A stretch of DNA of 64,000 nt from Bdellovibrionota bacterium. Lineage in GTDB: Bacteria > Bdellovibrionota > UBA2428. Of this stretch, positions 2,891 through 43,297 are shown in pieces (positions within the stretch are counted from its first letter, which is position 1; every line of letters begins with the position of its first letter). The DNA lies in NCBI GenBank assembly GCA_035539375.1, contig DATLIP010000099.1, positions 1,394-65,393 on the forward strand. The letters are read 5' to 3'. Position numbers and translations under genes: made by a program. Below the pieces are notes generated by a model that did not search any database, was not told the DNA's origin, and saw only the letters and a program-made list of their open reading frames with translations.

Positions 2891-2988
2891 TGTTGACTGA
2901 ATTGGTTAACTTAAAAGATCGAAATACCTAAGGAAGTAAAGGGTTTTTGCCTTGCTTATTATCAGACCCACGAATAGCGTTTCTCGCC

Positions 2989-3810: not shown

Positions 3811-4421
3811 TGCTCAAAGGACTTTTGTCGCTGGCAATCTTTATGGGCTCTGCAAGTGCTTTGGCGCAAGTCGGTGGGGGCCGCACCGCCATCGGAGGTG
3901 GCGGCGACCCTCGCGCCATCAAAATTTATGGAATCGCCAATAGCATTTGGAATGCCTACCATTGGGCCTTCTCCTTTGATTACCTCAGGATCGAAGCGTT
4001 GCCGAAAATGGCTCAAAGTCGTATCGACTCCCTCATGGGAAAGACGGGCCAGCTGGAAGTCATCGTCGAGTCGCGGCTCTTCATTCGTGAGGAGATTCAT
4101 GCGCACCGTTGGACTCGCATTAGCCAGGCAGAATTCGAAGAGGCCCAAAAGCTTCGCCAAGAACCTGGGGTAGTGGTGCGTGAAGTTTCGGCCATCAATT
4201 ATCCCGTGTTGAACATGCTTTACATCAGTTACGAACGCTGGAAAACGCACTCGGACAATGAAAGAATTTTCCTCCTCTTTCACGAACTCGTGAGTCTTGG
4301 CAATGTCCAAGAAACCCCGCACTACCGCTACACGCGCAGTTTTATGAATTGGCTCGCCCGCAATCCGGGGCAATACTCCTATCTCGTCTTGCAAATCAAT
4401 CCGCAGTACCCACTTCCTTAA
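3810..4421 (+). CDS. Secreted hypothetical protein, translationally coupled to the upstream HTH gene
   Basis: Signal peptide MLKGLLSLAIFMGSASALAQ. The start ATG overlaps the upstream stop (TGATG at 3808-3812). No recognisable family. Confidence 0.55.
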   Translation: MLKGLLSLAIFMGSASALAQVGGGRTAIGGGGDPRAIKIYGIANSIWNAYHWAFSFDYLRIEALPKMAQSRIDSLMGKTGQLEVIVESRLFIREEIHAHRWTRISQAEFEEAQKLRQEPGVVVREVSAINYPVLNMLYISYERWKTHSDNERIFLLFHELVSLGNVQETPHYRYTRSFMNWLARNPGQYSYLVLQINPQYPLP

Positions 4422-4506
4422 GTGCAGCGGCCTGTCGCGTTTCGCGGACGTTTTCTTGCGTTAAGATTTTATGAAGGCTCTCATTTCAGACGCTTGAGCG
4501 TCTTAT

Positions 4507-4615
4507 GAACCAAATCTTAACTGTTTCGCTCCACACAAAGCGCCGAGAATGATCAAACCAGCTAAGCGGTACGTTTCGGAAGTAGCAGGAAATTTTGAAT
4601 CTTTACGGAGCGTAC
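4507..4615 (+). promoter_or_regulatory. Conserved leader, copy A (shared with 7242-7350): GAACCAAA..TTAACTGTTT ... GCCGAGAAT ... hairpin ... GGAGCGTAC-ATG
   Basis: Hand alignment with 7242-7353 gives 57/80 identical positions in the first 80 nt, plus an identical SD context GGAGCGTAC. It contains a sigma-28-like -10 element, GCCGAGAAT, at 4542-4550. Confidence 0.5.
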
Positions 4616-29976: not shown

Positions 29977-30996
29977 ATGCAAAGCCGAATTTTGAGCGTT
30001 CTCACCCCGCTGTTCTGCGCCGTGACCCCCTTGGCCCTTGCCGGTGGCGCCGCAAAAAGTACTGATGCTCTGACGATCTACACCTCTTCCAACGAAGAGT
30101 TCATCCGTCCCATTTTTGAAAAATTCACCCAAGAGAGCGGCATCAAGATCAACTTCGTTGCCGACAAGGGGCCCGTGCTTATCGAAAAGCTCAAGGCCGA
30201 GGGCGCGAATAGCCCTGCGGATCTGCTGACTACGGTCGACGTGGGCAACCTCTGGCTCGCTGGCGAGGCGGGCCTTCTGGCGCCTACCCAAAGCGCTGAG
30301 CTTGAAGCCAATCTCCCCGCGCAGTACCGCGCCCCGCACAACGAATGGGTAGGGCTCTCGATCCGCGCGCGCACGATTTTCTACAATCCCAAAAAGGTCA
30401 AAGCCTCGCAGCTCAGCACCTACGAAGACCTTGCCTCGCCCAAGTGGAAAGGCAAGCTCTGCCTGCGCACCAGCAACAACGTTTATAACCAGTCGCTCGT
30501 CGCCTCCTTTATCGAAAACTGGGGCGAGAAGAAAACCGAAACCGTGCTCAAGGGCTGGGTGCGCAACCTCGCCGCGCCGGTCTTCGCTAGCGACACTCCG
30601 ATGCTTGAAGCCATCGCTGCTGGTCAGTGCGCCGTGGGCATTTCGAACTCCTATTACTTTGCCCGTCTCATCAAAGACAAACCCAGCCTCGACGTGAAAC
30701 TCTTTTGGGCCGACCAGGGTGGTCGCGGCACTCACGTGAACGTGATGGGCGGCGGCGTGCTCAAGGCTTCCAAGAAAAAAGAACTCGCCACACAGTTCCT
30801 CGTTTGGGCTTCGCGCCTCGAAGCTCAGAAGCTGCTTTCGGCGATGAACTACGAGTATCCCGTGAACCCCAAGGCCGAGGTGAGTCCGCAAATCCAAGCT
30901 TTCGGCAACTTCAAGCCCGATGCAATGCCTCTCTACAAAGCCGGCGAAAAACAGCGCGCCGCTGTGCAGTTGATGGATCGTGTGGGTTACAAGTAG
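29977..30996 (+). CDS. fbpA: Fe(III) ABC transporter periplasmic substrate-binding protein
   Basis: Aligns from memory with Haemophilus/Neisseria FbpA (SPKWKGK, SNSYYF, GGGVLKASKKKE). Signal peptide, SD AAGGAG and an upstream Fur box are present. Confidence 0.8.
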   Translation: MQSRILSVLTPLFCAVTPLALAGGAAKSTDALTIYTSSNEEFIRPIFEKFTQESGIKINFVADKGPVLIEKLKAEGANSPADLLTTVDVGNLWLAGEAGLLAPTQSAELEANLPAQYRAPHNEWVGLSIRARTIFYNPKKVKASQLSTYEDLASPKWKGKLCLRTSNNVYNQSLVASFIENWGEKKTETVLKGWVRNLAAPVFASDTPMLEAIAAGQCAVGISNSYYFARLIKDKPSLDVKLFWADQGGRGTHVNVMGGGVLKASKKKELATQFLVWASRLEAQKLLSAMNYEYPVNPKAEVSPQIQAFGNFKPDAMPLYKAGEKQRAAVQLMDRVGYK

Positions 30997-31018
30997 CAAA
31001 TCTCAAGGAGGGCGATCT

Positions 31019-32593
31019 ATGGCTCGCTCTCTGCTCAGGCTTATCGCCTACCTTCCGGGGCTGCTGCTCGTGGCTCCGCTCGGCTTTTTGTTGATTCAGT
31101 CTCTCGGCTCCTCGGCCGAACTCATCGCGCATGTCAGCTCCACGCAAATGCAAGACGCGCTCGTCACCACAAGTGAAATGCTTGTGGGGGTGACGCTGCT
31201 CTGCCTCGTGCTGGGCGGCGCGAGCGCGTGGCTGCTCTCGCGCTACGAGTTTTGGGGCGCCTCGTTTTGGCGCTGGTCGCTGCTGCTCTCGCTCGCGCTG
31301 CCAGCCTACGTGCAGTCCTTTTTGTGGATCTCATGGCTCGATTACTCCGGCCTCGTGCCCACCTGGCTGCGCGATCACACCGGCGCCACGTGGACTGGAG
31401 TCTTTTCGAATTACCGTTCGCTACCGGGTCTTTTGGTGCCCGTTGCCCTCGCGCAATTTCCCTACATGTATCTTTTGATCTTTGAGGGCCTCGAAACCCA
31501 GAGCCGCAACCTCTCCGATGCCGCGCGCAGTCTGGGGCTTGGCCGCTGGCGCCGCTTTTACAAACTCGATCTGCCGATCCTCGTGCCTTGGATCGCCTCC
31601 GGGGTGCTGCTCGTGGGTATGGAAACCCTCGCAGACTTCGGTTCCGTGAGCGTCTTTAATCTGAACGTTTTCACCACGGTGGTGTACCGTGCGTGGTTTG
31701 GTTTGCAATCCATCGAAACCGCCTCTTTCTTCGCTATGATTCACGTGCTTTTTCTCTCGCTCTTCGTGGGAGTGGTGCTGTGGTTCGCGCGTCGAAAAAA
31801 GTACACAGACCCTTATGCGGGCCGCCTTAAGATGGAACGCCGTCGCTTGAACAAAACGCCATCGCTTGCGGCGAACCTCTTTATTGGCGTTCTCTGGCTC
31901 ATTTCCTTTGTGCTGCCAGTGCTGCAACTGATTTATTGGTCTTTCTCGCGCCCCGAAACCTTTCTCGACCCGCGTTTGCTGGAGCGCGCCACCAACTCGC
32001 TGCTCGTGGCTGGGCTTGCGGCATTCATCGCGGTGCTCTTTGCAGCCTTTCTCGTGTTTGCTCATCGGTTTTTAAAGAGCGCGGACATCGCGTGGGCCGA
32101 AAAGATTTCCTCTCTCGGCTATGGCATTCCCGGAACGGTGATTGCCGTCGGATGGATGGCCGCCGTCACGCGGCTCTGGGGAGCTTCGCTGCAATCCACC
32201 GCGCTCGTGGCGCTCGTGACAATGCTCATCGGACTTGCGACGCGATTTCTGGCGCTCGCGCAGCGCCCCGTGATGAGCGCCGCAAGTCGTATCTCCACAT
32301 CTATCGAAGAATCCTCTCAGAGCACGGGCGCTTCGCTGTGGCGCACCTTATGGCATATTCACGTGCCGCTTCTGAAGAACGCCTTTCTCATCGGCTTTCT
32401 TTTTGTGTTCATCGACACGCTCAAGGAAATGCCCATGACGCTGCTCATGCGCCCCTATGGTTGGGATACGCTCGCGGTACGCGTCTATCAGTACACTTCG
32501 GACTTCATGTGGCGCGAAGCTGCGGCTCCCTCGCTGATGATCGTTGTGGCTTCTATCGTTCCCATTTTTTTGCTGAGGAGACGCATTCAATGA
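31019..32593 (+). CDS. fbpB: Fe(III) ABC transporter permease (duplicated permease domains)
   Basis: About 525 aa with two tandem MalFG-type permease halves, as in FbpB. SD AAGGAGG precedes ATG 31019. Confidence 0.8.
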   Translation: MARSLLRLIAYLPGLLLVAPLGFLLIQSLGSSAELIAHVSSTQMQDALVTTSEMLVGVTLLCLVLGGASAWLLSRYEFWGASFWRWSLLLSLALPAYVQSFLWISWLDYSGLVPTWLRDHTGATWTGVFSNYRSLPGLLVPVALAQFPYMYLLIFEGLETQSRNLSDAARSLGLGRWRRFYKLDLPILVPWIASGVLLVGMETLADFGSVSVFNLNVFTTVVYRAWFGLQSIETASFFAMIHVLFLSLFVGVVLWFARRKKYTDPYAGRLKMERRRLNKTPSLAANLFIGVLWLISFVLPVLQLIYWSFSRPETFLDPRLLERATNSLLVAGLAAFIAVLFAAFLVFAHRFLKSADIAWAEKISSLGYGIPGTVIAVGWMAAVTRLWGASLQSTALVALVTMLIGLATRFLALAQRPVMSAASRISTSIEESSQSTGASLWRTLWHIHVPLLKNAFLIGFLFVFIDTLKEMPMTLLMRPYGWDTLAVRVYQYTSDFMWREAAAPSLMIVVASIVPIFLLRRRIQ

Positions 32594-33699
32594 CCTTTCG
32601 TGAAGACGACTTGCGCATCGATGGACTGAGTTTTTTTCGCGGCGAAACGGTGATCTTAAAAAACATCTCGCTGCGACTCCCTGCTCACGCTCTCGGTGCG
32701 CTCGTAGGGCCGAGTGGTTCGGGCAAGACAACGCTCCTGCGGCTCATCGCGGGCTTCGAACGCCCTGCTGAAGGCAGCATCGTTCTCGGTGGCGAGACCT
32801 ATTCCTCACCAGTCCATGTGCTCCCTCCCGAACGACGTGGCATCGGCATCGTCTTCCAAGACTTCGCGCTTTTTCCGCATCTCAGTGTCGAAGAGAACGT
32901 CGCTTACGGCCTTTTTCGCGCCACTTCCGAGCAGCGTCGTCAGCGTAGTGCCTACGTGCTTGAACTCTTGGGCCTAGCGCCTTTTGCCAAGCGCTATCCG
33001 CAACAACTCTCCGGTGGTCAGCAGCAGCGAGTTGCCCTGGGCCGCGCGCTCGCGCCCAACCCCAAACTCCTGCTCCTTGATGAACCCTTTTCGCAGCTCG
33101 ATCCCGAATTGCGCGAAGAGCTCATCCAGGTCATGAACCTCGTGCTGCGTGAGACCAAGATCACCACGCTCCTTGTCACTCACCATCAAGAAGACGCCTA
33201 CGACCTAGCCGAACATCTTGGAGTTCTCGAGGGTGGTGACCTGCTGCAGTGGGGAGATCCCTTTGAGCTCTACCACTCACCTCGAAATCGTTTTGTCGCG
33301 GATTTTCTCGGCAAAGGGGCGCTCCTACCTGCCACGGTCGAGAGTGCGGGCTTTGTGCAAACTGAAATCGGTCGCCTGCCCTGCGCCAAAGAATGGCCTA
33401 TTGGCGAGGTGTGCGAATTGCTCGTGCGCCCCGATGATTTGGTGCACGTCGACGGCGATGGCCACTTTAGCGGCACACTGCTCAAGAAGCGTTTTCGCGG
33501 TTCTGCGCACCTCTATACCATCGAACTCCCGAGCCGGCGTCAGGTGCTCGCACTCGTGCCCAGCCACCACAACCACCGTGTTGGTGAGAGGGTGGGGCTT
33601 GAGGTCGACATGCGGCACGTGAATCTTTATCCCTTTTCGGGCGAGCTAAGGTCCTTCAACTTCGACACGCTCATCACACGTGGTCACGAAGATCTCTGA
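32590..33699 (+). CDS. fbpC: Fe(III) ABC transporter ATP-binding protein
   Basis: Walker A GPSGSGKTT, signature LSGGQQQRVALGRAL, Walker B LLLDEP and a C-terminal TOBE-like region. The ATGA start overlaps fbpB. The upstream part of ORF 31936-33699 is out-of-frame read-through of fbpB. Confidence 0.88.
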   Translation: MTFREDDLRIDGLSFFRGETVILKNISLRLPAHALGALVGPSGSGKTTLLRLIAGFERPAEGSIVLGGETYSSPVHVLPPERRGIGIVFQDFALFPHLSVEENVAYGLFRATSEQRRQRSAYVLELLGLAPFAKRYPQQLSGGQQQRVALGRALAPNPKLLLLDEPFSQLDPELREELIQVMNLVLRETKITTLLVTHHQEDAYDLAEHLGVLEGGDLLQWGDPFELYHSPRNRFVADFLGKGALLPATVESAGFVQTEIGRLPCAKEWPIGEVCELLVRPDDLVHVDGDGHFSGTLLKKRFRGSAHLYTIELPSRRQVLALVPSHHNHRVGERVGLEVDMRHVNLYPFSGELRSFNFDTLITRGHEDL

Positions 33700-34139
33700 A
33701 GCCTGCGCCGGATCACAATGCGATTGTAGCGTAACGCGCAGATGCAGGGCAGATTTGCGAGTACGGCGTAGGCAAGCATCACGAGCTTCGCCCAAAGCGG
33801 ATTCCATATAAAAAAGATCGGGCACGTGGCAAGGGTCACCCAATGGGCCGCTTCGCCGCGGCAGGTTTCCCTCGCAAAACGTTCTAAGTACGCAGGTTCT
33901 CGTGAGAGGATCTTGCCCTTAGGAAAGCCGCCACGAAACCAAGCGGCGGCGTCGGGCAAATGCGATTTCCAAAATTTGATACGCAATCCTCGGCTGTACA
34001 GATCGCCACCGAGTTCCCAGCGGCGCTCACGAAAGAGCGGTGAGTTCGGGTCAAAGATTCGAAGGGGCAAATCCGTGAAGATCTTGGACACCAGGAGATG
34101 CAGAATGGGCCAGCCAAGAAGGTTTGCGATCCAGACCAT
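33684..34139 (-). CDS. crtO: Glycosyl-4,4'-diaponeurosporenoate acyltransferase-like (CrtO-type) membrane protein
   Basis: A 151-aa membrane protein. PLFRERRWELGGDLY...FWKSHLPD...RETCRGEAAHW... matches the CrtO family as I recall it. It is the last gene of the crt operon. The upstream 110 codons of the ORF overlap crtQ and were discarded. Confidence 0.65.
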   Translation of the reverse strand: MVWIANLLGWPILHLLVSKIFTDLPLRIFDPNSPLFRERRWELGGDLYSRGLRIKFWKSHLPDAAAWFRGGFPKGKILSREPAYLERFARETCRGEAAHWVTLATCPIFFIWNPLWAKLVMLAYAVLANLPCICALRYNRIVIRRRLQRSS

Positions 34140-34141
34140 CG

Positions 34142-35215
34142 TCACGTGAGGGTCCGTCCTTTCCAGGTCTTCGGCGTCGCACCAATGCCCAGGGATTTCG
34201 CAAAAACGAATTGATAAAAAAACCACGCCACAGGAAAGAGTACCGCCGTAAGCAGGCGAAAGGATCCCAGGCGTCTCGCGAGCCAGGCCAGCTGACCGGC
34301 AAACAAGACATATGCCACCAGGAGTCCTTCCCGCACGCCGGGCATGGGCACAACGAGTGTCACGAGCGCAGCGAAGATCACCGTACCAAAGCCGGTGAGC
34401 CAGAGTACCGATGCGAGGAGCGCGCGTTTGTCCGTGTGCCGCGCGCCGCGTGCGAAAGCCTTGGTCCAACCTTCGATCAGCGAGTCCAGTCCCCCTGGGA
34501 ACATGCGCACTGAGAGCACGCCGCGCCCGAGGCGAGTCACAGTGCGTACCTTGGCGCTGTGAAAGCGTTCGGTCATGAAAAAGTTTTCCAACACTTCTCC
34601 ACTCACGGCCTGGTGCCCCCCGGCGCGTTCATAGTCGGCACGTCGAACCACAAGGCTCTGGCCCACGAGGCGCCGTGAGCCGGCAGACATCATGAGATTG
34701 AAAAAGATCGAAAGCTCTTCGTAGGCGTGCACCACGCGATGCCATGGCAGCACGGAAAGCGCGGTGGGAGCTTCGCGGTTGAGCTCTTCAAAATGAGTGA
34801 GGATCGATTGGAAGCCGTTGGCCTCGAAGCACACATCGGCATCCACAAAGAAAAAGAGCTCACCTCTCGCTGCCGTGGCACCTTGGTGGCAGGCCCAGTT
34901 TTTTCCCGTCCATCCCGCGGCGGGTAGTGGCTGAGCCCGAATCACGTGCGCACCGAGCTCGGTTGCCACGGAGGCGGTGTCATCATTCGAATCGTCGTCT
35001 ACGACAAGGACTTCTTCGGGGCGATGAGAGGTGGCAAAGATCGAGGGCAGGAGAACGCGCAGATTTTCCGCTTCATTGCGAGCGGGAATGATGATCGACA
35101 CGCGGAGCGCAGAAGGGGCGTTTGACTTGGGGACGCCACGTCGAGCTCCGATCACTCCAAAGCCCGCGAGCCAAGTGAGGGCGAGTCCCAGCATCAGCCA
35201 CGCGAGAGCGCTCAT
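34142..35215 (-). CDS. crtQ: Family 2 glycosyltransferase, CrtQ-like (diaponeurosporenoate glycosyltransferase)
   Basis: VSIIIPARNEAENL, VVDDDSNDDT and a membrane-spanning C-terminus. The position between crtP-like and crtO-like genes supports the call. Confidence 0.7.
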   Translation of the reverse strand: MSALAWLMLGLALTWLAGFGVIGARRGVPKSNAPSALRVSIIIPARNEAENLRVLLPSIFATSHRPEEVLVVDDDSNDDTASVATELGAHVIRAQPLPAAGWTGKNWACHQGATAARGELFFFVDADVCFEANGFQSILTHFEELNREAPTALSVLPWHRVVHAYEELSIFFNLMMSAGSRRLVGQSLVVRRADYERAGGHQAVSGEVLENFFMTERFHSAKVRTVTRLGRGVLSVRMFPGGLDSLIEGWTKAFARGARHTDKRALLASVLWLTGFGTVIFAALVTLVVPMPGVREGLLVAYVLFAGQLAWLARRLGSFRLLTAVLFPVAWFFYQFVFAKSLGIGATPKTWKGRTLT

Positions 35216-36720
35216 GAGCGGGATCCACGCTCGTCGCGATCGATGAGATCCGCCACATGTCGTCCACAGAGAACCACCATCGGCATGCCACCTCCGGGGT
35301 TCACGCTACCGCCCGCAAAAAACAAATTGCGGTATTTGTTGCTGCGCTTGGGTGCCTTGAACGCGAAATTTTTGAAACGATCGGAGACGACGCCGTATAT
35401 CGAACCTCCGTTGGAGCGGTAGCGCTTTTCGATGTCGAAGGGCGTCCAAAAGTCTTCCACCACGGTGTGCTTGCGCAATCCCTCGAGTCCCATGCGCTCC
35501 AACTTGTCGAGAACCCGTTCTTTGAGTGCGAGACAGTCTTCGCGGGTGTACTTGCCGTTGAGATAGGGAATGTGCGGAAGGATCTTGATGTTGTCATGCC
35601 CCTCGGGAGCCTGCGAAGGGTCTGTGCGCGTGGGGGCTACGAGATAAATCGTAGGATCGTCTGGCAACTTGCCCTCACGAAAAACACGATCGAAGTGTCG
35701 ATGCTGATCTTTAGAGTAAAAGAAATTGTGGTGCGCCAGTTGCGGGTAGGTGCGGTTGAGGCCCAGGTGCAAAACAATTCCGGAGCAAGCGGGTTCGAAT
35801 TTTTCTAGCTTGCGCATAAAACCGTCGCTCTCACCAAGCAGCTCGCGGTAGGCGGGAAGCACTTCCATGTTGGAGACCACGTAGTCGGCCTCAAAGTCAC
35901 GGCTGGGGCCGCGTTCGATACGGGAGCGGATTCCGGTGACGCGATCGCCCTGGCGGGTGATCGATTCCACTTCGGCGTTCAGGTGCACGGTCACACCGAG
36001 TTCGCTGAGACGTGTCTCAAAAGCGTGCGCCAATTCGTAGAGGCCGCCCTGAATGTACCACAGGCCAAATTCGAGTTGAATGTTGGGCATGAGGTTCATA
36101 AATCCTGGCGCATCGTTGGCCGAAGCGCCGACGTACTTGATGAAGTACTCAAAGATGGCCTGCAGGTATGGGTCGCGCGTGCGCTTGGCGATGCCGCCGC
36201 GCATGGAGTGCCAAAAGTCAAAGCCCCGCCCGTCGCGCCAGCCGTAAAACTTCACAAAATCCCAAAAGGTATCGAGTCCTTTTGCGAAGTATCCCCGCTC
36301 TGTGATGTCGTACTGTGCTTTGGAGTAGCGCAGCATCTCGCGGTATTCGGCAAAGGCGTGGGGGCCAAGGCGTTCGAGCTCACGCTCCATGTCCGCTTCG
36401 CGTTCCCACAAATCCACGGTGGTGCCGTCTTCAAAGAAGTTTCGCCACTGCGGATCCACGCGTACGAGCTTGATGTAGTCTTCGAGCCGACGCCCGTTTT
36501 GCTCAAAGAGGGGGCGAAACATATGTGGCAGTGTGAAAATCGAAGGGCCTAGGTCAAAGCTAAAACCTCCTTCGCGTAGCACGTTGAGTTTGCCGCCGAT
36601 GCGATCGTTGCGTTCAAAGATCTCCACGCGGTAGCCCTTCATAGCAAGCGATGTGGCGGCGGCAAGACCACCGAGTCCAGCACCGACAACAATCACCTTG
36701 GGAGTCTTGGGTTTGCTCAT
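35212..36720 (-). CDS. crtP: Phytoene-desaturase-family FAD oxidoreductase, CrtP/CrtNb-like (diapolycopene/diaponeurosporene oxygenase)
   Basis: Dinucleotide fold VIVVGAGLGGLAAA...FERNDRIGGK. The C-terminal GGSIYG...FFAGGSVNPGGGMP block is one I associate with CrtP-type members. Confidence 0.65.
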   Translation of the reverse strand: MSKPKTPKVIVVGAGLGGLAAATSLAMKGYRVEIFERNDRIGGKLNVLREGGFSFDLGPSIFTLPHMFRPLFEQNGRRLEDYIKLVRVDPQWRNFFEDGTTVDLWEREADMERELERLGPHAFAEYREMLRYSKAQYDITERGYFAKGLDTFWDFVKFYGWRDGRGFDFWHSMRGGIAKRTRDPYLQAIFEYFIKYVGASANDAPGFMNLMPNIQLEFGLWYIQGGLYELAHAFETRLSELGVTVHLNAEVESITRQGDRVTGIRSRIERGPSRDFEADYVVSNMEVLPAYRELLGESDGFMRKLEKFEPACSGIVLHLGLNRTYPQLAHHNFFYSKDQHRHFDRVFREGKLPDDPTIYLVAPTRTDPSQAPEGHDNIKILPHIPYLNGKYTREDCLALKERVLDKLERMGLEGLRKHTVVEDFWTPFDIEKRYRSNGGSIYGVVSDRFKNFAFKAPKRSNKYRNLFFAGGSVNPGGGMPMVVLCGRHVADLIDRDERGSRS

Positions 36721-36730
36721 AGAACGATCC

Positions 36731-37159
36731 TCACTTCACCATCCGCACGTTCAGCGGATGGATTTCCTCGTGCACGGTGAACTTGGACTCGTCGTAGTTC
36801 GGTGGTCCGAATCGGTACTTGGGATTGTTTGAGGCCCCCGCAGGTTCGCGCGGAATGCCGAGAAAGTTTTTATTGAGCGCGCCATCACCGTTCAAGTCTT
36901 CGAAAATCACGAGGGCGTATTCCCCAGCTTTGACGTCGTTGATCGAAAAGCGTGCTACGCTCTCACCTTCTTTAAGATCAAAGCGTGCGAAGTCTTTGCG
37001 CAAGGCGTGCTCCTTTTCCGAAGGAAACCCCTTTTTGTTATCAAAAAGCGCGTAAGCGATTTGGCCCGAGCGTCCTGTAAGATTCTCCACCTCAACGCGA
37101 AGTTCGGCAGCTAGGGTGGGCATGGCGATGAGTGTGGTCACGAGAGCCAAGGCTTTCAT
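36731..37159 (-). CDS. DUF2141 domain-containing secreted protein embedded in the carotenoid operon
   Basis: A signal peptide, then L.V.V.NL....G.I..ALF...,  ...DLNGDG.LNKNFLGIPREP.G.SNN, the DUF2141 signature. The ATGA start overlaps the upstream crtN-like gene. Confidence 0.75.
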   Translation of the reverse strand: MKALALVTTLIAMPTLAAELRVEVENLTGRSGQIAYALFDNKKGFPSEKEHALRKDFARFDLKEGESVARFSINDVKAGEYALVIFEDLNGDGALNKNFLGIPREPAGASNNPKYRFGPPNYDESKFTVHEEIHPLNVRMVK

Positions 37160-38700
37160 AGCCTCAACTCCGAGAATTCTTTAGCCTTAGGGAAGGTAAT
37201 GCCGTCGCGTTCGCAGAGCAGGTTTGCCGAAATGCGGGCCGATTCAAAGATCGTAGGCAAGCCGCTTCCTGGATGCGTACCGCCTCCTACCAAGTAGCAA
37301 TCCGAGATTTCTTCGAACTCGTTGTGCGGCCGGCGGTAGAGCATTTGCGAAATGTTATGGCCCATGTTGAAGGTGGCTCCCAAAAATACGGAGCGCTTGT
37401 TCTGCCAGTCGTCCGGGGTGAGTATCAGCTCCGAGCGGATGTGCTGTCGAACATTCTTGTAAGGGCTACGCTCTTCGAGAATCTTGAGAATCCGCTCGCG
37501 GTAGACAGCTTTTTCTGTGGCCCAGTCGATGCCACTCGTGTTGTTGGGCACGGGGCAGAGCACATAGAGAGCCGAATGTCCCTCGGGTGCGCAGCCCGGA
37601 TCGAGGGTTACCGAGTTGCGTACGTAGACGGAGACATCTTCAGAGGCCACCTTGCGATGCGATATGTCTTCGAGGTTTTTTTGGTAATCCTTGGCAAAGA
37701 CAATCATGTGGTGCTCGCAGTCGGGGTAGGTGCGGTCCAGGCCGAGGTACATCATGAAGGTCGAGCAGGAGTAGTTCAAAGTTTTGAGCTTTTCGGGAGC
37801 GTATTTTTTGATTCGTTCACGCGGAAACAGATGTTCCATGGCATGACCGAAGTCCGCATTTACAAAGACCGCATCGGCATCCACCGACTCTCCATCGGCA
37901 AGCTCGACGCCCACGGCGCGCTGACCCTCGAGGCGTACCCGCTTCACTGGGCGCTCGGTATGAATCTGGGCACCGAATTCCTTAGCAACCGTGGCCAGGG
38001 CGTCGGTGATTTTATTAAGTCCACCCATCACATGATAAATGCCATGAGCGTGTTCGGTGTAGGGGATCATTGCAAAGAGCCCCGGACAATCCCAGGGCGA
38101 CATGCCGAGGTATTTGGACTGAAAGGTGAAAGCTAGGCGTAGCTCTTCGGAGCGGAAGTATTCTCCCAGCACATCGTAAAGCGATTTGCCCGCGGCCAAA
38201 TGCGGGAAGGCTTTCAGTAGAGTGGTGCTAAAGAATTGGCTGAGACGGCCGTAGTCGCGCTGCAGGCAGGGGTAGAGGCGTTCGAAGCGCTTTGATTCGC
38301 GCTCGTGAAATTTGTCGAGTGCCGGTCCCTCACCGGGAAAGTGCTTTTCGATCTCGAGCTTCATCCGCTCGCGGTCTTCAGTGACGAGCATCTCCTTGGC
38401 GTCAAAAATCAGTCGATACATAGGGTCGAGACGGCGACAGTCGAGGTAATCGCGGATGTCACGGCCGCATTCTGTAAAGAGCTCGTCGAGCAGATACTTC
38501 ATCATCAGAAAGGTCGGGCCCAGGTCGAAACGGTATTTGCCGTCGAGCACGACCTCGGCATTGCGCCCACCTAGGGCGGATTCTTTTTCGTAGACCGTTA
38601 CCCGGTAACCCCGGGCACCCAGGATCATGGCGGCCGCTAGCCCCCCCGGTCCGGCTCCGATGATCACCACGTGTTTTTGCGCTTGAGAAGATGGGCTCAT
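37156..38700 (-). CDS. crtN: Phytoene/dehydrosqualene desaturase family protein (CrtN/CrtI-like)
   Basis: HVVIIGAGPGGLAAA...YEKESALGGR. YSCSTFMMYLGLD, SVYVRNSVTLDPGCAPEG and LVGGGTHPGSGLP align with S. aureus CrtN blocks from memory. ATG 38700 was chosen. Confidence 0.75.
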   Translation of the reverse strand: MSPSSQAQKHVVIIGAGPGGLAAAMILGARGYRVTVYEKESALGGRNAEVVLDGKYRFDLGPTFLMMKYLLDELFTECGRDIRDYLDCRRLDPMYRLIFDAKEMLVTEDRERMKLEIEKHFPGEGPALDKFHERESKRFERLYPCLQRDYGRLSQFFSTTLLKAFPHLAAGKSLYDVLGEYFRSEELRLAFTFQSKYLGMSPWDCPGLFAMIPYTEHAHGIYHVMGGLNKITDALATVAKEFGAQIHTERPVKRVRLEGQRAVGVELADGESVDADAVFVNADFGHAMEHLFPRERIKKYAPEKLKTLNYSCSTFMMYLGLDRTYPDCEHHMIVFAKDYQKNLEDISHRKVASEDVSVYVRNSVTLDPGCAPEGHSALYVLCPVPNNTSGIDWATEKAVYRERILKILEERSPYKNVRQHIRSELILTPDDWQNKRSVFLGATFNMGHNISQMLYRRPHNEFEEISDCYLVGGGTHPGSGLPTIFESARISANLLCERDGITFPKAKEFSELRL

Positions 38701-38813
38701 GGCTAAAATGTAGGCGCAACCCGCTAGGATGTCGATTGACCTACAAACCAGCTTAAAAATAAGCCAAAATCCTGACGCGTAAACGTTTTTTCTCAAAACA
38801 CCGAAAGAGAGTT

Positions 38814-39677
38814 ATGGAACAGCTCACGATCGGGATGGCCGTCTACGAAGATTTCGACGGCGTGTATTTTTCGATACAGGCTCTGCGCTATTATCACCAA
38901 GAAGCGCCGATGAGTCGCATCAAGTTTCTCGTTGTGGACAACTGTCCATCCGGAAAACATTCTGAGACGATCCGAAAATTCGTCGAAGGCATCGGGGGCA
39001 CATACATCGGCACTGACGAAGTCAAAGGCACGGCCGTACGCAATTTGATTTTTGAACGCGCGCAAACCGAGCTTGTTCTCTGTATGGATTCGCATGTGCT
39101 CATCGAGCCTGGCGCGGTTCGTCAGCTTCTTGAGTATTACGACAAACACCCCCAGAGCCAAGACTTGCTGCAGGGGCCGCTAGTTTACGACGACATTTAT
39201 CACATGGCTTCGCACTTTCAGCCCGAGTGGCGCGGTGGCATGTACGGTACTTGGGCGTGGGACGAACGCGCACGTCACAAGAACGATGCGCCCTTCGCGA
39301 TTCCTTCGCAGGGCCTCGGACTTTTTTCTTGCCGTAAGTCGGCGTGGCTCGGATTCAACCGCCGTTTCTCCGGATTTGGCGGTGAAGAATTTTACATTCA
39401 CGAAAAGTTTCGTCAGGCGGGTCGCCAGGCGCTGTGTCTGCCCTTTCTGCGTTGGCTGCATCGTTTTGGTCGCCCCAATGGCACCATCTACCGCAACAAG
39501 TGGGAAGATCGCATTCGTAATTACCTCATTGGTTGGCGCGAATTGAATTTGCCCACCGAGGAGCTCGAAGCGCATTTTGCGACCATCGTAGGTCCAAAAA
39601 TCGTGGAGCAAGTGAAAGACGGAGTGCTGAGCGAAGATGCGGCGCTTGATCCAGCTGCCAAACGCAAAGCAGCCTAA
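38814..39677 (+). CDS. Family 2-like glycosyltransferase (divergent from crt operon)
   Basis: A GT-A-like N-terminus (IGMAVYEDFDGVYFSIQAL...FLVVDNCPSGKHSE...CMDSH), soluble, 287 aa. Confidence 0.6.
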   Translation: MEQLTIGMAVYEDFDGVYFSIQALRYYHQEAPMSRIKFLVVDNCPSGKHSETIRKFVEGIGGTYIGTDEVKGTAVRNLIFERAQTELVLCMDSHVLIEPGAVRQLLEYYDKHPQSQDLLQGPLVYDDIYHMASHFQPEWRGGMYGTWAWDERARHKNDAPFAIPSQGLGLFSCRKSAWLGFNRRFSGFGGEEFYIHEKFRQAGRQALCLPFLRWLHRFGRPNGTIYRNKWEDRIRNYLIGWRELNLPTEELEAHFATIVGPKIVEQVKDGVLSEDAALDPAAKRKAA

Positions 39678-40138: not shown

Positions 40139-41641
40139 ATGAAAAAGTCTTCTACATCGCGAAGGGTGCTCCCGGGTCTTGGATCACCACAGTGGCTCAA
40201 TCGCTGCGCGACGTGGGCACTGCTGGTGGTCTCGGTCTCCCAACTCACAAGTTGTGGCTATTATATGGCGACCGCCGACCAAGAAGCGATCCCACCTCTT
40301 GGTGATGAAGACTCGGCTCTTTCGCTTTCGATTCGCGGCAAGGTGAATCTCGACGACGATACCTTGGCCGACATTCTCACCCTCGACCCTAGCGCCAAAC
40401 CCCTCAAAGGTTGGGCGATTCGTTTGACCTCAGTGCTCGGTAGCCCCACGGTATATACAGACACTTCGGTGCTTGTGGCCTTTACCGACGACGAGGGTAA
40501 TTTCACCATTCAAGGCGTTCCCGACGATTCCTATCGCGTGATCGCGGTGCCTCCAGCTGATTTCGTTCCGGCCCTCGACTCCGAAATGGATACCGACGGC
40601 GTCAACGATGGTTCGGTGCTCGGCTATCTGAGCCTCTCGGACACGCCATATTTGACCTTTGATTTTACCAAGAAAGTTCCCTCCACCACACTCGCTCCGG
40701 ATTGCGATCCCAACTGCTTCCGCATCTCCGGTGTGGTGTACATGAACAAATCTAGCGACGCGCAAACGGCACTCGACGGAGCTGACGGCCTCTTCGAAGG
40801 CGCGGTCGTTGAGCTCTATTATGGTCCCTGGGGCTCGCGCACCGAAGGTTCGCGTGTGCTCGACGGTGACGGTTATCCCATACGCGCCGTAACCGACTCC
40901 AATGGTCGTTATGAATTCGAAGTTGCGGCGGACTCCTATAAAGTTGTCGTCGCTCCCGAGCTCACCAACATGCAATTCAACTGGGAATCGACGTCCGACG
41001 GACGCTTCGACGGCGCGACCAACGTGCTCGTGAGCAGCGCCGACGTTGAAAACGTGAACTTCGGTATTGTTTACAATGCCGATCTCGAAGATCGCGCAGC
41101 CATCGTTTACGATCCGAACACCACAATGGATCCGGGGACGACCGCCGACCCCGGCACGACTCCCGCGGTGACCACCACGCCTTACGCAACCACGACTCCG
41201 GAAGCGACAACTGCAGCTCCTACGACTCCGGCGCCTACGACCGCGGCACCGACCACTCCAGCTCCGACAACCGCAGCTCCTACGACTCCGGCTCCGACGA
41301 CGGTTCCTCCGACAACACCGGAACCTACAACCGCAGCTCCTACGACTCCGGCGCCTACGACCGCGGCACCGACCACTCCAGCTCCGACAACCGCAGCTCC
41401 CACGACTCCGGCGCCTACGACCGCGGCGCCTACCACGCCGATGGCAACGACACCGGAACCTACCACTTCGTATTACGCAGGTACGACTTCGGATCCTTAT
41501 GCGACGACGACTTACGATCCTTACGGAACGACACCGTCACCTACCACTTCGTATTATGCCGGTACGACTTCGGATCCGTACGCCACCACAACCTACGACC
41601 CTTACGGTACGACTCCGTGGCCTACCACGACTGGCTACTAA
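40139..41641 (+). CDS. Lipoprotein with two CarboxypepD_reg/SdrD-B-like beta-sandwich domains and a mucin-like Pro/Thr-rich repeat tail
   Basis: Lipobox QLTSC. FTDDEGNFTIQGVPDDSYRVIAVP and VTDSNGRYEFEVAADSYKVVVAP are typical T-D-x-x-G-x-Y-x-F motifs. The C-terminal 150 aa is (TTPAPTTAAP)n followed by 2 x 27-aa Tyr/Thr repeats. Confidence 0.8.
   Translation: MKKSSTSRRVLPGLGSPQWLNRCATWALLVVSVSQLTSCGYYMATADQEAIPPLGDEDSALSLSIRGKVNLDDDTLADILTLDPSAKPLKGWAIRLTSVLGSPTVYTDTSVLVAFTDDEGNFTIQGVPDDSYRVIAVPPADFVPALDSEMDTDGVNDGSVLGYLSLSDTPYLTFDFTKKVPSTTLAPDCDPNCFRISGVVYMNKSSDAQTALDGADGLFEGAVVELYYGPWGSRTEGSRVLDGDGYPIRAVTDSNGRYEFEVAADSYKVVVAPELTNMQFNWESTSDGRFDGATNVLVSSADVENVNFGIVYNADLEDRAAIVYDPNTTMDPGTTADPGTTPAVTTTPYATTTPEATTAAPTTPAPTTAAPTTPAPTTAAPTTPAPTTVPPTTPEPTTAAPTTPAPTTAAPTTPAPTTAAPTTPAPTTAAPTTPMATTPEPTTSYYAGTTSDPYATTTYDPYGTTPSPTTSYYAGTTSDPYATTTYDPYGTTPWPTTTGY
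41189..41458 (+). repeat. In-frame 30-nt tandem repeat (about 9 units, TTPAPTTAAP) with a 120-nt higher-order period
   Basis: Units acgactccggcgcctacgaccgcggcaccg/accactccagctccgacaaccgcagctcct recur. The block starting near 41207 is repeated almost exactly 120 nt later. Confidence 0.9.
41459..41620 (+). repeat. 2 x 81-nt tandem repeat encoding PTTSYYAGTTSDPYATTTYDPYGTTP(S/W)
   Basis: Direct reading of nucleotide and protein sequence. The two units differ at only a few positions. Confidence 0.9.
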
Positions 41642-42345
41642 GGCTGAGTCAACAGGGCGTGGGTCTCATACATGGCTTCAGGCTCCATGCGGTGCAGATG
41701 CACTGTGAGATGCTTAGCCAAAAAAGCGCGGTTCGGAAGTTTCATTCCTGAGACTTCGATATAATCCTGCTTGTTCCAAAAGTTTAGGCTAGGCACCAGC
41801 TGGTGATTTGCGTGTAGCACGATGCCGTTCGTATGTAGACATTGCCCGACGGCAAGATCTTCGTAGGGTTGTTGCGCAAAGTTTTCATCTTCCACCACGC
41901 AGCGCATGGCGCGTCTATCAATAAAGTATCCCGCTCCGCCGCTTCCGTACTCGAAGTGGGCTTCGGGAGTGGGCATTGGATAACCCTCGTACGCTGTGTT
42001 CACTTCGTGCGCGGCAAAGGCACGCGCGTTGATCAGGGTGTCGTCGTCGCATTTGAACACGTGGGTGGCCGAGTTTTGCTCGAGCACCCACTTAAAGAAA
42101 AGTTGAGACTTTTGCGCCAGTGCTTCGTAGGTGTCAGGGCAGCGTAGGCTCAGGCGCCCGATATCGCGATCAAAATCAAAGAGCGCATGCTGATTCTCGT
42201 CAGCGATCACCTGCACAACGCGCGTGCGCGGACAGATTTCGAGCAAGTCCGGAATCCAGGTATCGACACAGGCCTGCAGACGATCCACGTATTTTTGGCA
42301 AGAAACCACCCCCACGATCAAATCCAAATTCTCAACTCGAGCCAT
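41638..42345 (-). CDS. Fringe-like / GT31-like glycosyltransferase (cytoplasmic, 235 aa)
   Basis: DTW, PDTYEALAQKSQLFFKWVL, DxD motif KCDDDT, GSGGAGYFI and EDLAVGQCL reproduce the conserved block order of the Fringe/beta-1,3-GalT (GT31) fold. ATG 42345 was chosen; the upstream part of the ORF overlaps the next gene. Confidence 0.6.
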   Translation of the reverse strand: MARVENLDLIVGVVSCQKYVDRLQACVDTWIPDLLEICPRTRVVQVIADENQHALFDFDRDIGRLSLRCPDTYEALAQKSQLFFKWVLEQNSATHVFKCDDDTLINARAFAAHEVNTAYEGYPMPTPEAHFEYGSGGAGYFIDRRAMRCVVEDENFAQQPYEDLAVGQCLHTNGIVLHANHQLVPSLNFWNKQDYIEVSGMKLPNRAFLAKHLTVHLHRMEPEAMYETHALLTQP

Positions 42346-42412
42346 GTGCTTTGCGTATCCCCCGTTATTACAATTGTAGCGCGCGCTCCGGCCAAGGTAA
42401 ACGCCATCGCGC

Positions 42413-43297
42413 TTAGCGCATGGCGCGCAGAAGCTCTGGAGGATTGGCCACGAGATCAAGCAAGCGATCGCAACGCTCAGAAAGTCTGCGGATACCGCGG
42501 TGCACATGCAGCAGGCGGATTTCGGCGTTCTTTTCGGCGACGAGCTCGCGAAAGCTGCGCTGGTTGGCGGGGGCGGCGAGCGCATCGAGCGCTTCCATGA
42601 TGATGTTATAAGCCCGGTAGAGCCGGAAGTGATGGCGCAACCACTCCTCTTCGTTGGGCGGCACCAGGGCTTTTGCACCTTCAATATGGTAGTTCTCCCG
42701 CAGCCATGAGCGGGCCTCGGCGTAAGTGGCAAACGGCACGTAGGCCTTGCCCAGGCCCAGCACGTTGCCTCGTTGGTCGTCGGGCACGAAATCCACCCAA
42801 TCGTCGATCAGGATGACATTTTCGAGGTCGTCATGCGCTAGGCGCAAATCTTTTTTGCCGCGGCGAAAAAAAACGTCGTCCCAATCGAGCACTGGGGATC
42901 CGTCGGGTTTTTTGAGGTGGTGCTTGGAGAAAACTTCGTGGCCGAGTTCCCTAAAGGTGCGCTCTGGTCCATCTTCGGTGTTGAGCTTGTCTAGCAAGCT
43001 GTGGTTGCGCTCTTCGCTCCCGCCGCTGAAATAAGACTGCGAGGCTACCAGGGGGTGGGCAGCCAGGGCGGGCAAGATCCAGCTCGCTCCCGCAGCGATC
43101 TTGTAGCGCCGGCCGTAAACTTCCACGAGGCCCGGGGTGTCCTCGGGCAAATCGTCGGCGTGGTCCACCAGGGTGCCGTCCAGATCCCAGATCAGATGTA
43201 CGCGCCCTGGGGTTTCGCGCGCGTGCGTGTTGGGAATCAAGAAAAGCCCGCAAATCCCCAAAATTACGAACCTTAAGCGCCGCCGAGTCACGTCCAC
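42413..43297 (-). CDS. Secreted HAD-superfamily phosphatase, NIF/FCP1-like
   Basis: Signal RLRFVILGICGLFLIPNTHA. HAD motif I is WDLDGTLVDH. GKKDLRL...NVILIDDW...P...NVL resembles the NLI-interacting-factor-like phosphatase layout. Confidence 0.45.
   Translation of the reverse strand: MDVTRRRLRFVILGICGLFLIPNTHARETPGRVHLIWDLDGTLVDHADDLPEDTPGLVEVYGRRYKIAAGASWILPALAAHPLVASQSYFSGGSEERNHSLLDKLNTEDGPERTFRELGHEVFSKHHLKKPDGSPVLDWDDVFFRRGKKDLRLAHDDLENVILIDDWVDFVPDDQRGNVLGLGKAYVPFATYAEARSWLRENYHIEGAKALVPPNEEEWLRHHFRLYRAYNIIMEALDALAAPANQRSFRELVAEKNAEIRLLHVHRGIRRLSERCDRLLDLVANPPELLRAMR

What the first reader, a model, noticed from the sequence alone, without database searches (positions are those of the whole stretch)
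33684..38700. Staphyloxanthin-type C30 carotenoid glycoside-ester operon without a synthase gene
Five co-directional, tightly packed genes, mostly with ATGA overlaps, encode:
- a CrtN/CrtI-like desaturase;
- a DUF2141 protein;
- a CrtP-like oxygenase;
- a CrtQ-like GT2;
- a CrtO-like acyltransferase.

This is the tailoring half of the Staphylococcus crtOPQMN pathway. No dehydrosqualene/phytoene synthase (crtM/crtB) and no aldehyde dehydrogenase (aldH) are present in the operon or elsewhere in the window.

The precursor may come from an unlinked squalene or dehydrosqualene synthase, as in the squalene route to C30 carotenoids described for some Planctomycetes and Methylobacterium. An acylated glycosyl C30 carotenoid in this kind of organism would be unusual.
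Basis: partly seen in the sequence, partly recalled or inferred. Interest (0 to 1): 0.6.

Follow-up and report, generated by a model that had tools for sequence, protein, structure and literature searches.

The report
C30 carotenoid operon lacking backbone synthase
An uncultured Bdellovibrio-group bacterium carries an intact operon of a known type for finishing a sugar- and fatty-acid-decorated C30 carotenoid pigment, but neither it nor three nearly complete relatives encode any known enzyme for the pigment's backbone, so the source of the starting material is open.

Summary
Five co-directional minus-strand genes (38700 to 33684) encode CrtN, a DUF2141 protein, CrtP, a membrane GT2 (CrtQ-like) and CrtO, joined by ATGA, a 10-nt spacer, ATGA and GTGA.

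The operon is orthologous (about 65% identity, same order) to the crtN-aldH-crtP-GT2-crtO operons of Acidobacteriota, the published squalene-route C30 type. It is a reduced variant. In Acidobacteriota DUF2141 is the periplasmic C-terminal domain of the operon's aldehyde dehydrogenase (at least 43 fusion proteins found). Here only DUF2141 remains.

No SQS_PSY-family synthase (CrtM, CrtB, HpnC/D or Sqs) exists in this 79%-complete assembly. None exists in three relatives that carry the same operon and are 90-94% complete. A tRNA-Arg slot that holds an Sqs-like island in one relative is intact and empty in all four. Three other operon-bearing relatives do have a divergent, unlinked Sqs-like gene. 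crtN and crtP look to be under purifying selection.

The cluster itself is a known kind in a new phylum. Where its substrate comes from is unresolved: an unassembled accessory synthase, scavenged squalene or an unknown enzyme.

The parts
37156..38700 (-). crtN: FAD-dependent C30 carotenoid (squalene or 4,4'-diapophytoene) desaturase, 514 aa, with the motif GAGPGGLAAA
   Evidence: It scores 448 bits on TIGR02734 (cut-off 238). It is 64.5% identical to the first gene of the Terriglobus roseus crtN-aldH-crtP-GT2-crtO operon and only 28% identical to that operon's CrtP. It falls in the CrtN clade of the tree. The solved CrtI structure 4dgk scores only 238 bits.
36731..37159 (-). DUF2141 protein, 142 aa, with an N-terminal signal peptide or anchor (MKALALVTTLIAMPTLAA). 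It is a periplasmic beta-sandwich and a stand-alone remnant of the AldH-DUF2141 gene of related operons.
   Evidence: It scores 104 bits on PF09912. The AlphaFold model has pLDDT 92.3 and is all-beta, and no PDB fold matches above TM 0.47. Fusion proteins AldH-TM-DUF2141 occupy the same operon position in L061 and in Silvibacterium acidisoli, and at least 43 such fusion clusters were found. The motif D-x-N-G-N-x-K-L-D...GIPRE...RFGPP is conserved.
35212..36720 (-). crtP: CrtI-family oxidase that converts a terminal methyl of the C30 polyene to an aldehyde, 502 aa
   Evidence: It scores 362 bits on TIGR02734. It is 65.3% identical to the third gene (crtP position) of the T. roseus operon and 27% identical to its CrtN. 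It falls in the CrtP clade.
34142..35215 (-). crtQ-like membrane GT2 glycosyltransferase, 357 aa
   Evidence: It matches PF00535 at 4e-19. It is 43% identical to the GT2 of the T. roseus operon. It has hydrophobic segments at residues 1-19, 264-282 and 321-339.
33684..34145 (-). crtO-like glycosyl-carotenoate acyltransferase, 153 aa. The start is GTG in a GTGA overlap, with an alternative ATG at 34139.
   Evidence: It scores 93.9 bits on PF18927 (cut-off 27.3). It is 36.6% identical to T. roseus CrtO and 50-55% identical to the relatives' copies.
38707..38735 (-). Promoter-like site (TCGACA-17-TACATT) in the 113-bp region between crtN and the divergent GT2 gene. It would give a very short or absent leader.
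   Evidence: This is a consensus scan only. The number of sites in the region does not exceed that found in shuffled sequence, so the evidence is weak. The sequence was read.

Best explanation
This is a functional operon, inherited or laterally shared with soil Acidobacteriota, for the late steps of an acylated glycosyl C30 carotenoate.

Inferred steps, by orthology:
1. CrtN desaturates a C30 tail-to-tail triterpene. This is most likely squalene, as in the related operons, and otherwise 4,4'-diapophytoene. The product is 4,4'-diaponeurosporene or 4,4'-diapolycopene.
2. CrtP oxidises a terminal methyl group to an aldehyde.
3. An aldehyde dehydrogenase encoded elsewhere makes the acid. The class-3 ALDH on contig C113 is only a candidate.
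4. The membrane GT2 esterifies a sugar to the carboxyl group.
5. CrtO acylates the sugar.

DUF2141 is an exported beta-sandwich module. In the ancestral operon it is tethered by one transmembrane helix to the cytoplasmic AldH. It probably handles the carotenoid or its sugar head on the periplasmic side, but its function is not shown.

The backbone synthase is not encoded in the operon, the window or the assembly.
- My odds for this genome are about 25% that an accessory, island-borne Sqs-like gene exists but was not assembled or binned, and about 75% that it is truly absent.
- If it is absent, taking up squalene made by other bacteria (prey) is the leading guess. An undiscovered synthase or a conditionally idle operon are the alternatives.
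For: -
- The operon is collinear with, and about 65% identical to, the T. roseus and S. acidisoli operons. These have the gene set shown genetically in Planctopirus limnophila (PMC9907078).
- The operon is conserved in G004, G006, G014, G008 and the metagenome contigs L052 and L061.
- dN is 0.17-0.23 while dS is saturated, and all ORFs are intact. This indicates purifying selection.
- Polyprenyl synthases are present, so FPP is plausible.
- SQS_PSY is absent from G000, G004, G006 and G014.
- The slot FAA-hydrolase/tRNA-Arg(CCT)/membrane-protein holds a 4-gene Sqs-like island in G008. It is intact and empty in G014, G004 and G006. In this genome contigs C18 and C34 join there by an exact 141-nt overlap.
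- Prey lipid A is taken into the Bdellovibrio outer membrane (review PMC13689555). This gives a precedent for the reuse of prey lipids.
Against: - No pigment, transcript or enzyme data exist.
- This MAG is only 79% complete. Accessory islands are lost from MAGs more often than marker-based completeness suggests.
- Three operon-bearing relatives (G008, G005, G009) do have an Sqs-like gene, so a cognate synthase exists in the family.
- No operon-type AldH ortholog was found in the assembly. The best match is 31% identical and belongs to another subfamily. The acid needed by the GT2 step is therefore not secured.
- The predatory lifestyle and the phylum name rest on earlier unchecked notes.
Confidence: 0.72

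Rival explanations
1. This is an ordinary squalene-route cluster. The genome has an unlinked Sqs-like (or HpnCD) gene that simply lies in the missing 21% of the MAG or on an unbinned island.
For: - Completeness is 79%.
- The family does have Sqs-like genes, in G008, G005 and G009 together with the operon.
- These genes sit on short contigs or near contig ends and in variable contexts. Such regions assemble and bin poorly.
- In all characterised squalene-route organisms the synthase is unlinked.
Against: - Three relatives with the operon are 90-94% complete and also lack it. The naive joint chance of missing it in all four is about 8e-5 (0.21 x 0.06 x 0.10 x 0.06).
- The only slot known to hold the island in a same-genus pair is intact and empty in all four genomes.
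- The co-occurrence of the operon and the Sqs-like gene in the family (3 genomes with both, 7 with each, out of 20) is no better than chance.
Confidence: 0.25
2. The synthase is truly absent. The operon is fed with squalene, or a C30 carotenoid intermediate, taken from prey or the environment.
For: - SQS_PSY is consistently absent from four operon-bearing genomes of four genera, while the operon stays intact under purifying selection.
- No squalene-hopene cyclase was found in any of the 20 family genomes, so there is no other internal use for squalene.
- The nearest homologues are in Acidobacteriota, which are soil squalene and C30-carotenoid producers.
- CrtN accepts squalene (PMC9907078).
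- Bdellovibrio reuses prey lipid A.
- CrtN without any synthase is also reported in Clostridia and in some Fusobacteria and Fibrobacteria.
Against: - This is purely inferential.
- No uptake system is linked to the operon. The neighbouring ABC importer is of a solute type, SBP_bac/TOBE_2.
- Squalene is a minor lipid in most bacteria.
- The lifestyle of this family is unknown.
Confidence: 0.25
3. An undiscovered head-to-head C15+C15 synthase, unrelated to SQS_PSY, supplies the backbone.
For: The evidence is the same absence pattern. Rubritalea squalenifaciens and other exceptions in PMC9907078 already hint at unknown routes.
Against: No conserved extra gene accompanies the operon in any of the seven loci compared. 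No candidate was identified.
Confidence: 0.1
4. The operon is conditionally idle or decaying in this strain. Both the operon and the synthase island are accessory genes that come and go, and pigment is made only by strains that have both.
For: - G008 and G014 belong to the same genus and differ by a clean 4-gene island that carries the Sqs-like gene.
- The operon's flanks differ between genera.
- aldH has also been lost from the operon.
Against: - All five ORFs are intact in five genomes.
- dS is saturated while dN is low.
- Retention across four genera without the synthase argues for function.
Confidence: 0.12

Closest known systems
Acidobacteriota C30 operons: Terriglobus roseus LT629690.1 (crtN-aldH-crtP-GT2-crtO) and Silvibacterium acidisoli CP085323.1 (crtN-aldH::DUF2141-crtP-GT2-crtO)
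   Same: The gene order and orientation are the same. CrtN is 64.5% identical, CrtP 65.3%, GT2 43% and CrtO 37%. DUF2141 sits at the same position.
   Different: - The AldH half is missing here and DUF2141 stands alone with its own signal peptide.
- The host phylum differs.
- According to PMC9907078, Acidobacteria have HpnCDE. This genome has no SQS_PSY gene and no HpnE.
Planctopirus limnophila squalene route (hpnCDE + crtN, crtP, aldH, crtQ, crtO; PMC9907078)
   Same: It has the same tailoring enzyme set and the same expected product class, acylated glycosyl C30 carotenoates. The synthase is not in the tailoring operon.
   Different: hpnC, hpnD and hpnE are present and essential there. None was found here. 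P. limnophila has no DUF2141 gene described.
Staphylococcus aureus crtOPQMN plus unlinked aldH (staphyloxanthin)
   Same: It has CrtN, CrtP, CrtQ and CrtO homologues, aldH is unlinked, and the product is an acylated glycosyl ester of a C30 carotenoic acid.
   Different: crtM lies in the S. aureus operon and dehydrosqualene is the substrate. The gene order differs. No sequence comparison with the S. aureus proteins was possible with the tools at hand.
DUF2141 genes next to crtG in Sphingomonadales C40 clusters (PMC5989583)
   Same: A DUF2141 protein of unknown function is encoded beside a carotenoid-oxygenating enzyme.
   Different: That context is a C40 pathway with a different partner enzyme (a 2,2'-beta-hydroxylase). 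Identity to those proteins is only 27-32%.

Membership tests
C30 carotenoid acid glycoside-ester pathway (crtN, crtP, aldH, crtQ, crtO + CrtM or HpnCDE/Sqs) | CrtN-type desaturase | tested here: met
   It scores 448 bits on TIGR02734. It is 64.5% identical to the crtN-position gene of T. roseus. It forms a clade separate from CrtP.
C30 carotenoid acid glycoside-ester pathway (crtN, crtP, aldH, crtQ, crtO + CrtM or HpnCDE/Sqs) | CrtP-type terminal oxidase | tested here: met
   It scores 362 bits on TIGR02734 and is 65.3% identical to the crtP-position gene of T. roseus.
C30 carotenoid acid glycoside-ester pathway (crtN, crtP, aldH, crtQ, crtO + CrtM or HpnCDE/Sqs) | Dedicated aldehyde dehydrogenase | tested here: not met
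   There is none in the operon or the window. The best genome hit is C113:34735-36165, 31% identical and of the class-3/MdlD-like subfamily rather than the operon type. The relative G006 and contig L061 do carry it in the operon.
C30 carotenoid acid glycoside-ester pathway (crtN, crtP, aldH, crtQ, crtO + CrtM or HpnCDE/Sqs) | CrtQ-like GT2 and CrtO acyltransferase | tested here: met
   The GT2 matches PF00535 at 4e-19 and is 43% identical to the T. roseus GT2. CrtO scores 93.9 bits on PF18927 against a cut-off of 27.3.
C30 carotenoid acid glycoside-ester pathway (crtN, crtP, aldH, crtQ, crtO + CrtM or HpnCDE/Sqs) | Backbone synthase of the SQS_PSY family somewhere in the genome | tested here: not met
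   PF00494 gave no hit at E<=10. A family Sqs-like protein used as query gave no hit. An unfiltered local HMM search gave a best E of 0.28. The assembly is 79% complete, so absence from the organism is not proven.
C30 carotenoid acid glycoside-ester pathway (crtN, crtP, aldH, crtQ, crtO + CrtM or HpnCDE/Sqs) | The product is a C30 carotenoid | not testable with these tools
   This needs HPLC-MS of cells or of a heterologous host.
C40 CrtB/CrtI/CrtD pathway | Phytoene synthase CrtB, and CrtI or CrtD equivalog scores | tested here: not met
   No SQS_PSY gene was found. The CrtID and CrtD equivalog scores of 217-322 bits fall below their cut-offs of 500-640.
DUF2141 (PF09912) | Match to the Pfam model above the gathering score | tested here: met
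   It scores 104.1 bits against a cut-off of 24.4.

The most novel reading that the evidence does not exclude
A family of Bdellovibrio-group bacteria keeps a complete carotenoid-finishing operon under purifying selection although it has no enzyme for the C30 backbone. It makes its pigment from squalene or carotenoid intermediates taken from the bacteria it consumes, or else it uses a head-to-head synthase unrelated to the SQS_PSY family.
Probability: 0.3. Interest if true: 0.8.

Novelty: new variant of a known kind. Interest (0 to 1): 0.45.

Why it matters
- The operon type is already understood, so the cluster on its own is routine annotation.
- Operon-bearing genomes that repeatedly lack any known backbone synthase would matter if the absence holds up. 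Three of the four checked here are of good quality, and a syntenic slot is empty in all four. A real absence means either a pigment pathway fed by lipids taken from other organisms or an unknown route to C30 triterpenes.
- PMC9907078 left similar CrtN-only cases in Clostridia, Fusobacteria and Fibrobacteria unexplained.
- The link between DUF2141 and the carotenoid aldehyde dehydrogenase gives this unstudied domain family its first concrete pathway context. At least 43 fusions were found, each with a membrane-spanning linker.

Tried and rejected
1. I first took the contig break beside the FAA-hydrolase gene, together with the missing soluble pyrophosphatase, as a sign that the sqs region was simply unassembled here. 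I rejected this. The pyrophosphatase occurs only in G008. Contigs C18 and C34 join by an exact 141-nt overlap across tRNA-Arg with no room for an island.
2. A third CrtI-like hit on C101 was considered as HpnE. It is a HemY-like gene directly after hemE.
3. A scan of metagenome contigs with the family's Sqs-like alignment gave 80 loci, at most 32% identical. None carried crtN, crtP, GT2, crtO or DUF2141 nearby, so no linkage was found.
4. Fold searches of DUF2141 with a weak model and a strong model gave only generic beta-sandwich matches with TM at most 0.47. A sequence search of the PDB gave nothing.
5. dN/dS could not be computed because dS is saturated in both pairs. The 92%-identical contig L060 was fetched but not analysed.
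6. The genome-contig scan with CrtO returned only one locus, a MAG labelled Haliangium.
7. The supplementary tables of PMC9907078 are not held.
8. Organism names could not be obtained for the relatives.
10. Misbinning of the contig was considered and rejected. Five independent MAGs of the family carry the operon on contigs of 20-179 kb.
Full report
**What is there**

On the minus strand, five genes run from 38700 to 33684.
- The first is a CrtI-family flavoprotein of 514 aa (38700..37156).
- The second is a 142-aa DUF2141 protein (37159..36731).
- The third is a second CrtI-family flavoprotein of 502 aa (36720..35212).
- The fourth is a 357-aa GT2 (35215..34142).
- The fifth is a 153-aa protein of the CrtO family (34145..33684).

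Pfam and NCBIfam scores are all well above the cut-offs:
- TIGR02734 gives 448 and 362 bits for the two flavoproteins (cut-off 238).
- PF09912 gives 104 bits for the DUF2141 protein.
- PF00535 matches the GT2 at E 4e-19.
- PF18927 gives 93.9 bits for CrtO (cut-off 27.3).

The junctions are ATGA, a 10-nt spacer with GAGGA, ATGA and GTGA. The GT2 and CrtO have hydrophobic segments, as expected for membrane enzymes. A weak promoter-like site lies just upstream of crtN in the 113-bp divergent intergenic region. Downstream, a convergent SBP-permease-ATPase importer (29989-33696) ends 16 bp inside crtO.

**Which family it belongs to**

The nearest named homologues of the first enzyme, at 64-67% identity, are all from Acidobacteriota: Granulicella, Edaphobacter, Silvibacterium and Terriglobus.
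- In Terriglobus roseus the gene heads an operon crtN-aldH-crtP-GT2-crtO.
- The window's proteins match that operon gene for gene: 64.5%, 65.3%, 43% and 37% identity. Cross-matches between the two oxidases are only 27-28%.
- A tree places the two window proteins in separate clades with the T. roseus CrtN and CrtP.
- This gene set was shown by mutants and reconstitution in Planctopirus limnophila to make acylated glycosyl C30 carotenoates from squalene. That paper lists Acidobacteria among the carriers (PMC9907078).
- C40 assignments fail. CrtD and CrtID equivalog scores are far below their cut-offs, and there is no CrtB.

**The DUF2141 gene**

It has a signal-peptide-like N-terminus.
- With a 53-sequence alignment it folds with pLDDT 92.3 into a beta-sandwich. 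No solved structure matches it closely (TM at most 0.47).
- On a metagenome contig whose CrtN is 76% identical to the window's, the gene between crtN and crtP is a 626-aa fusion of an aldehyde dehydrogenase with DUF2141.
- At least 43 such fusion clusters of about 620 aa exist. One is in the complete genome of Silvibacterium acidisoli, where it sits between crtN and crtP.
- Of these 43, 40 have a hydrophobic stretch between the two domains. This implies a cytoplasmic AldH, one membrane pass and a periplasmic DUF2141.
- The relative G006 has AldH and DUF2141 as adjacent overlapping genes.

The window's operon is therefore a reduced form in which the AldH half has gone and DUF2141 remains. DUF2141 genes also sit beside crtG in Sphingomonadales (PMC5989583). 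What the domain does is unknown. A role on the periplasmic side in handling the carotenoid or its head group is an inference.

**The aldehyde dehydrogenase step**

No operon-type AldH ortholog is in the assembly. The best hit (C113:34735-36165, 31% identity) belongs to a class-3/MdlD-like subfamily. It is a candidate only. In S. aureus the aldH of this pathway is also unlinked (my knowledge of the literature).

**The missing synthase**

The window lies on a 73-kb contig of a 2.89-Mb, 116-contig MAG that is 79% complete. Earlier notes of this scan call it an uncultured Bdellovibrionota bacterium. I could not check the name.

No SQS_PSY-family gene was found by any of four searches:
- PF00494 gave nothing at E<=0.01 or at E<=10.
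- tblastn with relatives' homologues gave nothing.
- A family Sqs-like protein used as query gave nothing.
- An unfiltered hmmsearch of all 30,474 six-frame ORFs gave a best E of 0.28, while a held-out control scored 7.6e-60.

No HpnE and no squalene-hopene cyclase were found either. Polyprenyl synthases are present.

**Relatives**

Among 401 sampled genomes of the phylum, CrtO occurs only in this family. The family has 20 genomes.

| Group | Genomes | Notes |
|---|---|---|
| Same operon with DUF2141 | G000, G004, G006, G014, G008 | G008's contig ends inside the GT2 gene |
| Divergent crtN-ALDH-crtP version | G005, G009 | 34-43% identity to the window's oxidases |
| Divergent Sqs-like gene | G003, G005, G008, G009, G012, G013, G015 | best model TIGR01559, 81-102 bits, below its cut-off; DxxxD motifs kept; never next to crt genes; varied contexts |

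- Three operon carriers have the Sqs-like gene: G008, G005 and G009.
- Four do not: G000 (79% complete), G004 (94%), G006 (90%) and G014 (94%).
- From marker completeness, the naive chance of missing it in all four is about 8e-5. Accessory islands are lost from MAGs more often than that figure assumes.

**A direct test of absence**

In G008 the Sqs-like gene lies in a 4-gene block: pentapeptide protein, Sqs-like, esterase and soluble pyrophosphatase. The block sits between an FAA-hydrolase gene and tRNA-Arg(CCT).
- In G014, which is in the same genus, the hydrolase and the tRNA are adjacent and the block is absent.
- In G004 and G006 the same interval is intact and holds other genes but no Sqs-like gene.
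- The pyrophosphatase is found in none of the other six operon carriers. The block is therefore an insertion in G008, not a core region.
- In this genome, contig C18 ends and contig C34 begins with the same 141 nt spanning that tRNA. The slot is continuous and empty.

**Selection**

Between this genome and contig L052, and between G014 and G008, crtN and crtP have dN of 0.17-0.23 while synonymous sites are saturated. All ORFs are intact. The operon has therefore been kept by selection, including in lineages without a detectable synthase.

**Reading**

The operon's identity and chemistry are well supported by orthology. The product is inferred, not shown. The substrate source is unresolved.
- For this genome I put about 25% on an unassembled accessory synthase.
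- If the synthase is truly absent, the alternatives are squalene taken up from other bacteria, an unknown synthase, or a conditionally idle operon in a pan-genome where operon and synthase islands come and go.
- Uptake has some precedent. CrtN uses squalene (PMC9907078). Bdellovibrio reuses prey lipid A (PMC13689555). The closest homologues belong to squalene-producing soil Acidobacteriota.
- PMC9907078 already notes CrtN carriers without any synthase in Clostridia and in some Fusobacteria and Fibrobacteria. The puzzle therefore has precedent but no answer.
- Carotenoids with a normal synthase are known elsewhere in the phylum, in Silvanigrellales (PMC12321486).
- No paper in the held library links Bdellovibrionota with this C30 operon.

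**Limits**

- Relatives' genomes could be searched only through the capped genome search.
- Reference CrtN and CrtP proteins from S. aureus or P. limnophila were not available for the tree.

**Verdict**

This is a real operon of a known kind, in a reduced variant and in a new phylum. It comes with a reproducible and unexplained lack of any known backbone synthase, and with a useful new context for DUF2141.

Noticed in passing
L061:9591-11471; L142:7001-8863 (Silvibacterium acidisoli CP085323.1); proteins P0132-P0176: AldH-DUF2141 fusion proteins of about 620 aa sit between crtN and crtP in many C30 carotenoid operons. Where an organism is named, it is an acidobacterium. In 40 of 43 fusions a hydrophobic linker separates the domains, implying a periplasmic DUF2141. 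I found no description of this in the papers searched.
   Followed up: partly
L037 (G008:C124) 1742-5254: A four-gene island (pentapeptide-repeat protein, divergent Sqs-like synthase, esterase, soluble inorganic pyrophosphatase) is inserted between an FAA-hydrolase gene and tRNA-Arg(CCT). It is absent from the same slot in G014, G004, G006 and this genome.
   Followed up: yes
Family genomes G003, G012, G013, G015 (L013, L041, L039, L040): Sqs-like genes occur in family members that have no crtN/crtP, and none of the 20 genomes has a squalene-hopene cyclase. What these synthases feed is unclear. In G013 and G015 the gene overlaps a GH3-family and an enolase-superfamily gene in one operon.
   Followed up: partly
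L033 (G005:C9) and L036 (G009:C24): A second, divergent carotenoid cluster type exists in the same family: crtN-like, a different ALDH subfamily, crtP-like and a distant GT2. It has no DUF2141 and no CrtO, and identity to the window's oxidases is 34-43%.
   Followed up: partly
L020:3880-5115 (G004) and L052:2607-4115: Photolyase-family genes lie 3-6 kb upstream of crtN in two relatives, which hints at a light-protection context. There is none near the operon in this window.
   Followed up: partly
window 38814-39677 (+) and 41638-42732 (-): A soluble GT2 is divergently transcribed from crtN, with a Fringe/GT31-like glycosyltransferase further on.
   Followed up: partly
genome contigs C18 (end) and C34 (start): The two contigs share an exact 141-nt end overlap across tRNA-Arg(CCT) and can be joined. 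The break at a tRNA may reflect strain variation at an island integration site.
   Followed up: partly
L005, L006, L007 (G022, G030, G038; another family of the phylum): An 813-aa ORF contains an SQS_PSY domain fused to something else, probably a carotenoid enzyme fusion. It was used only as a positive control.
   Followed up: no
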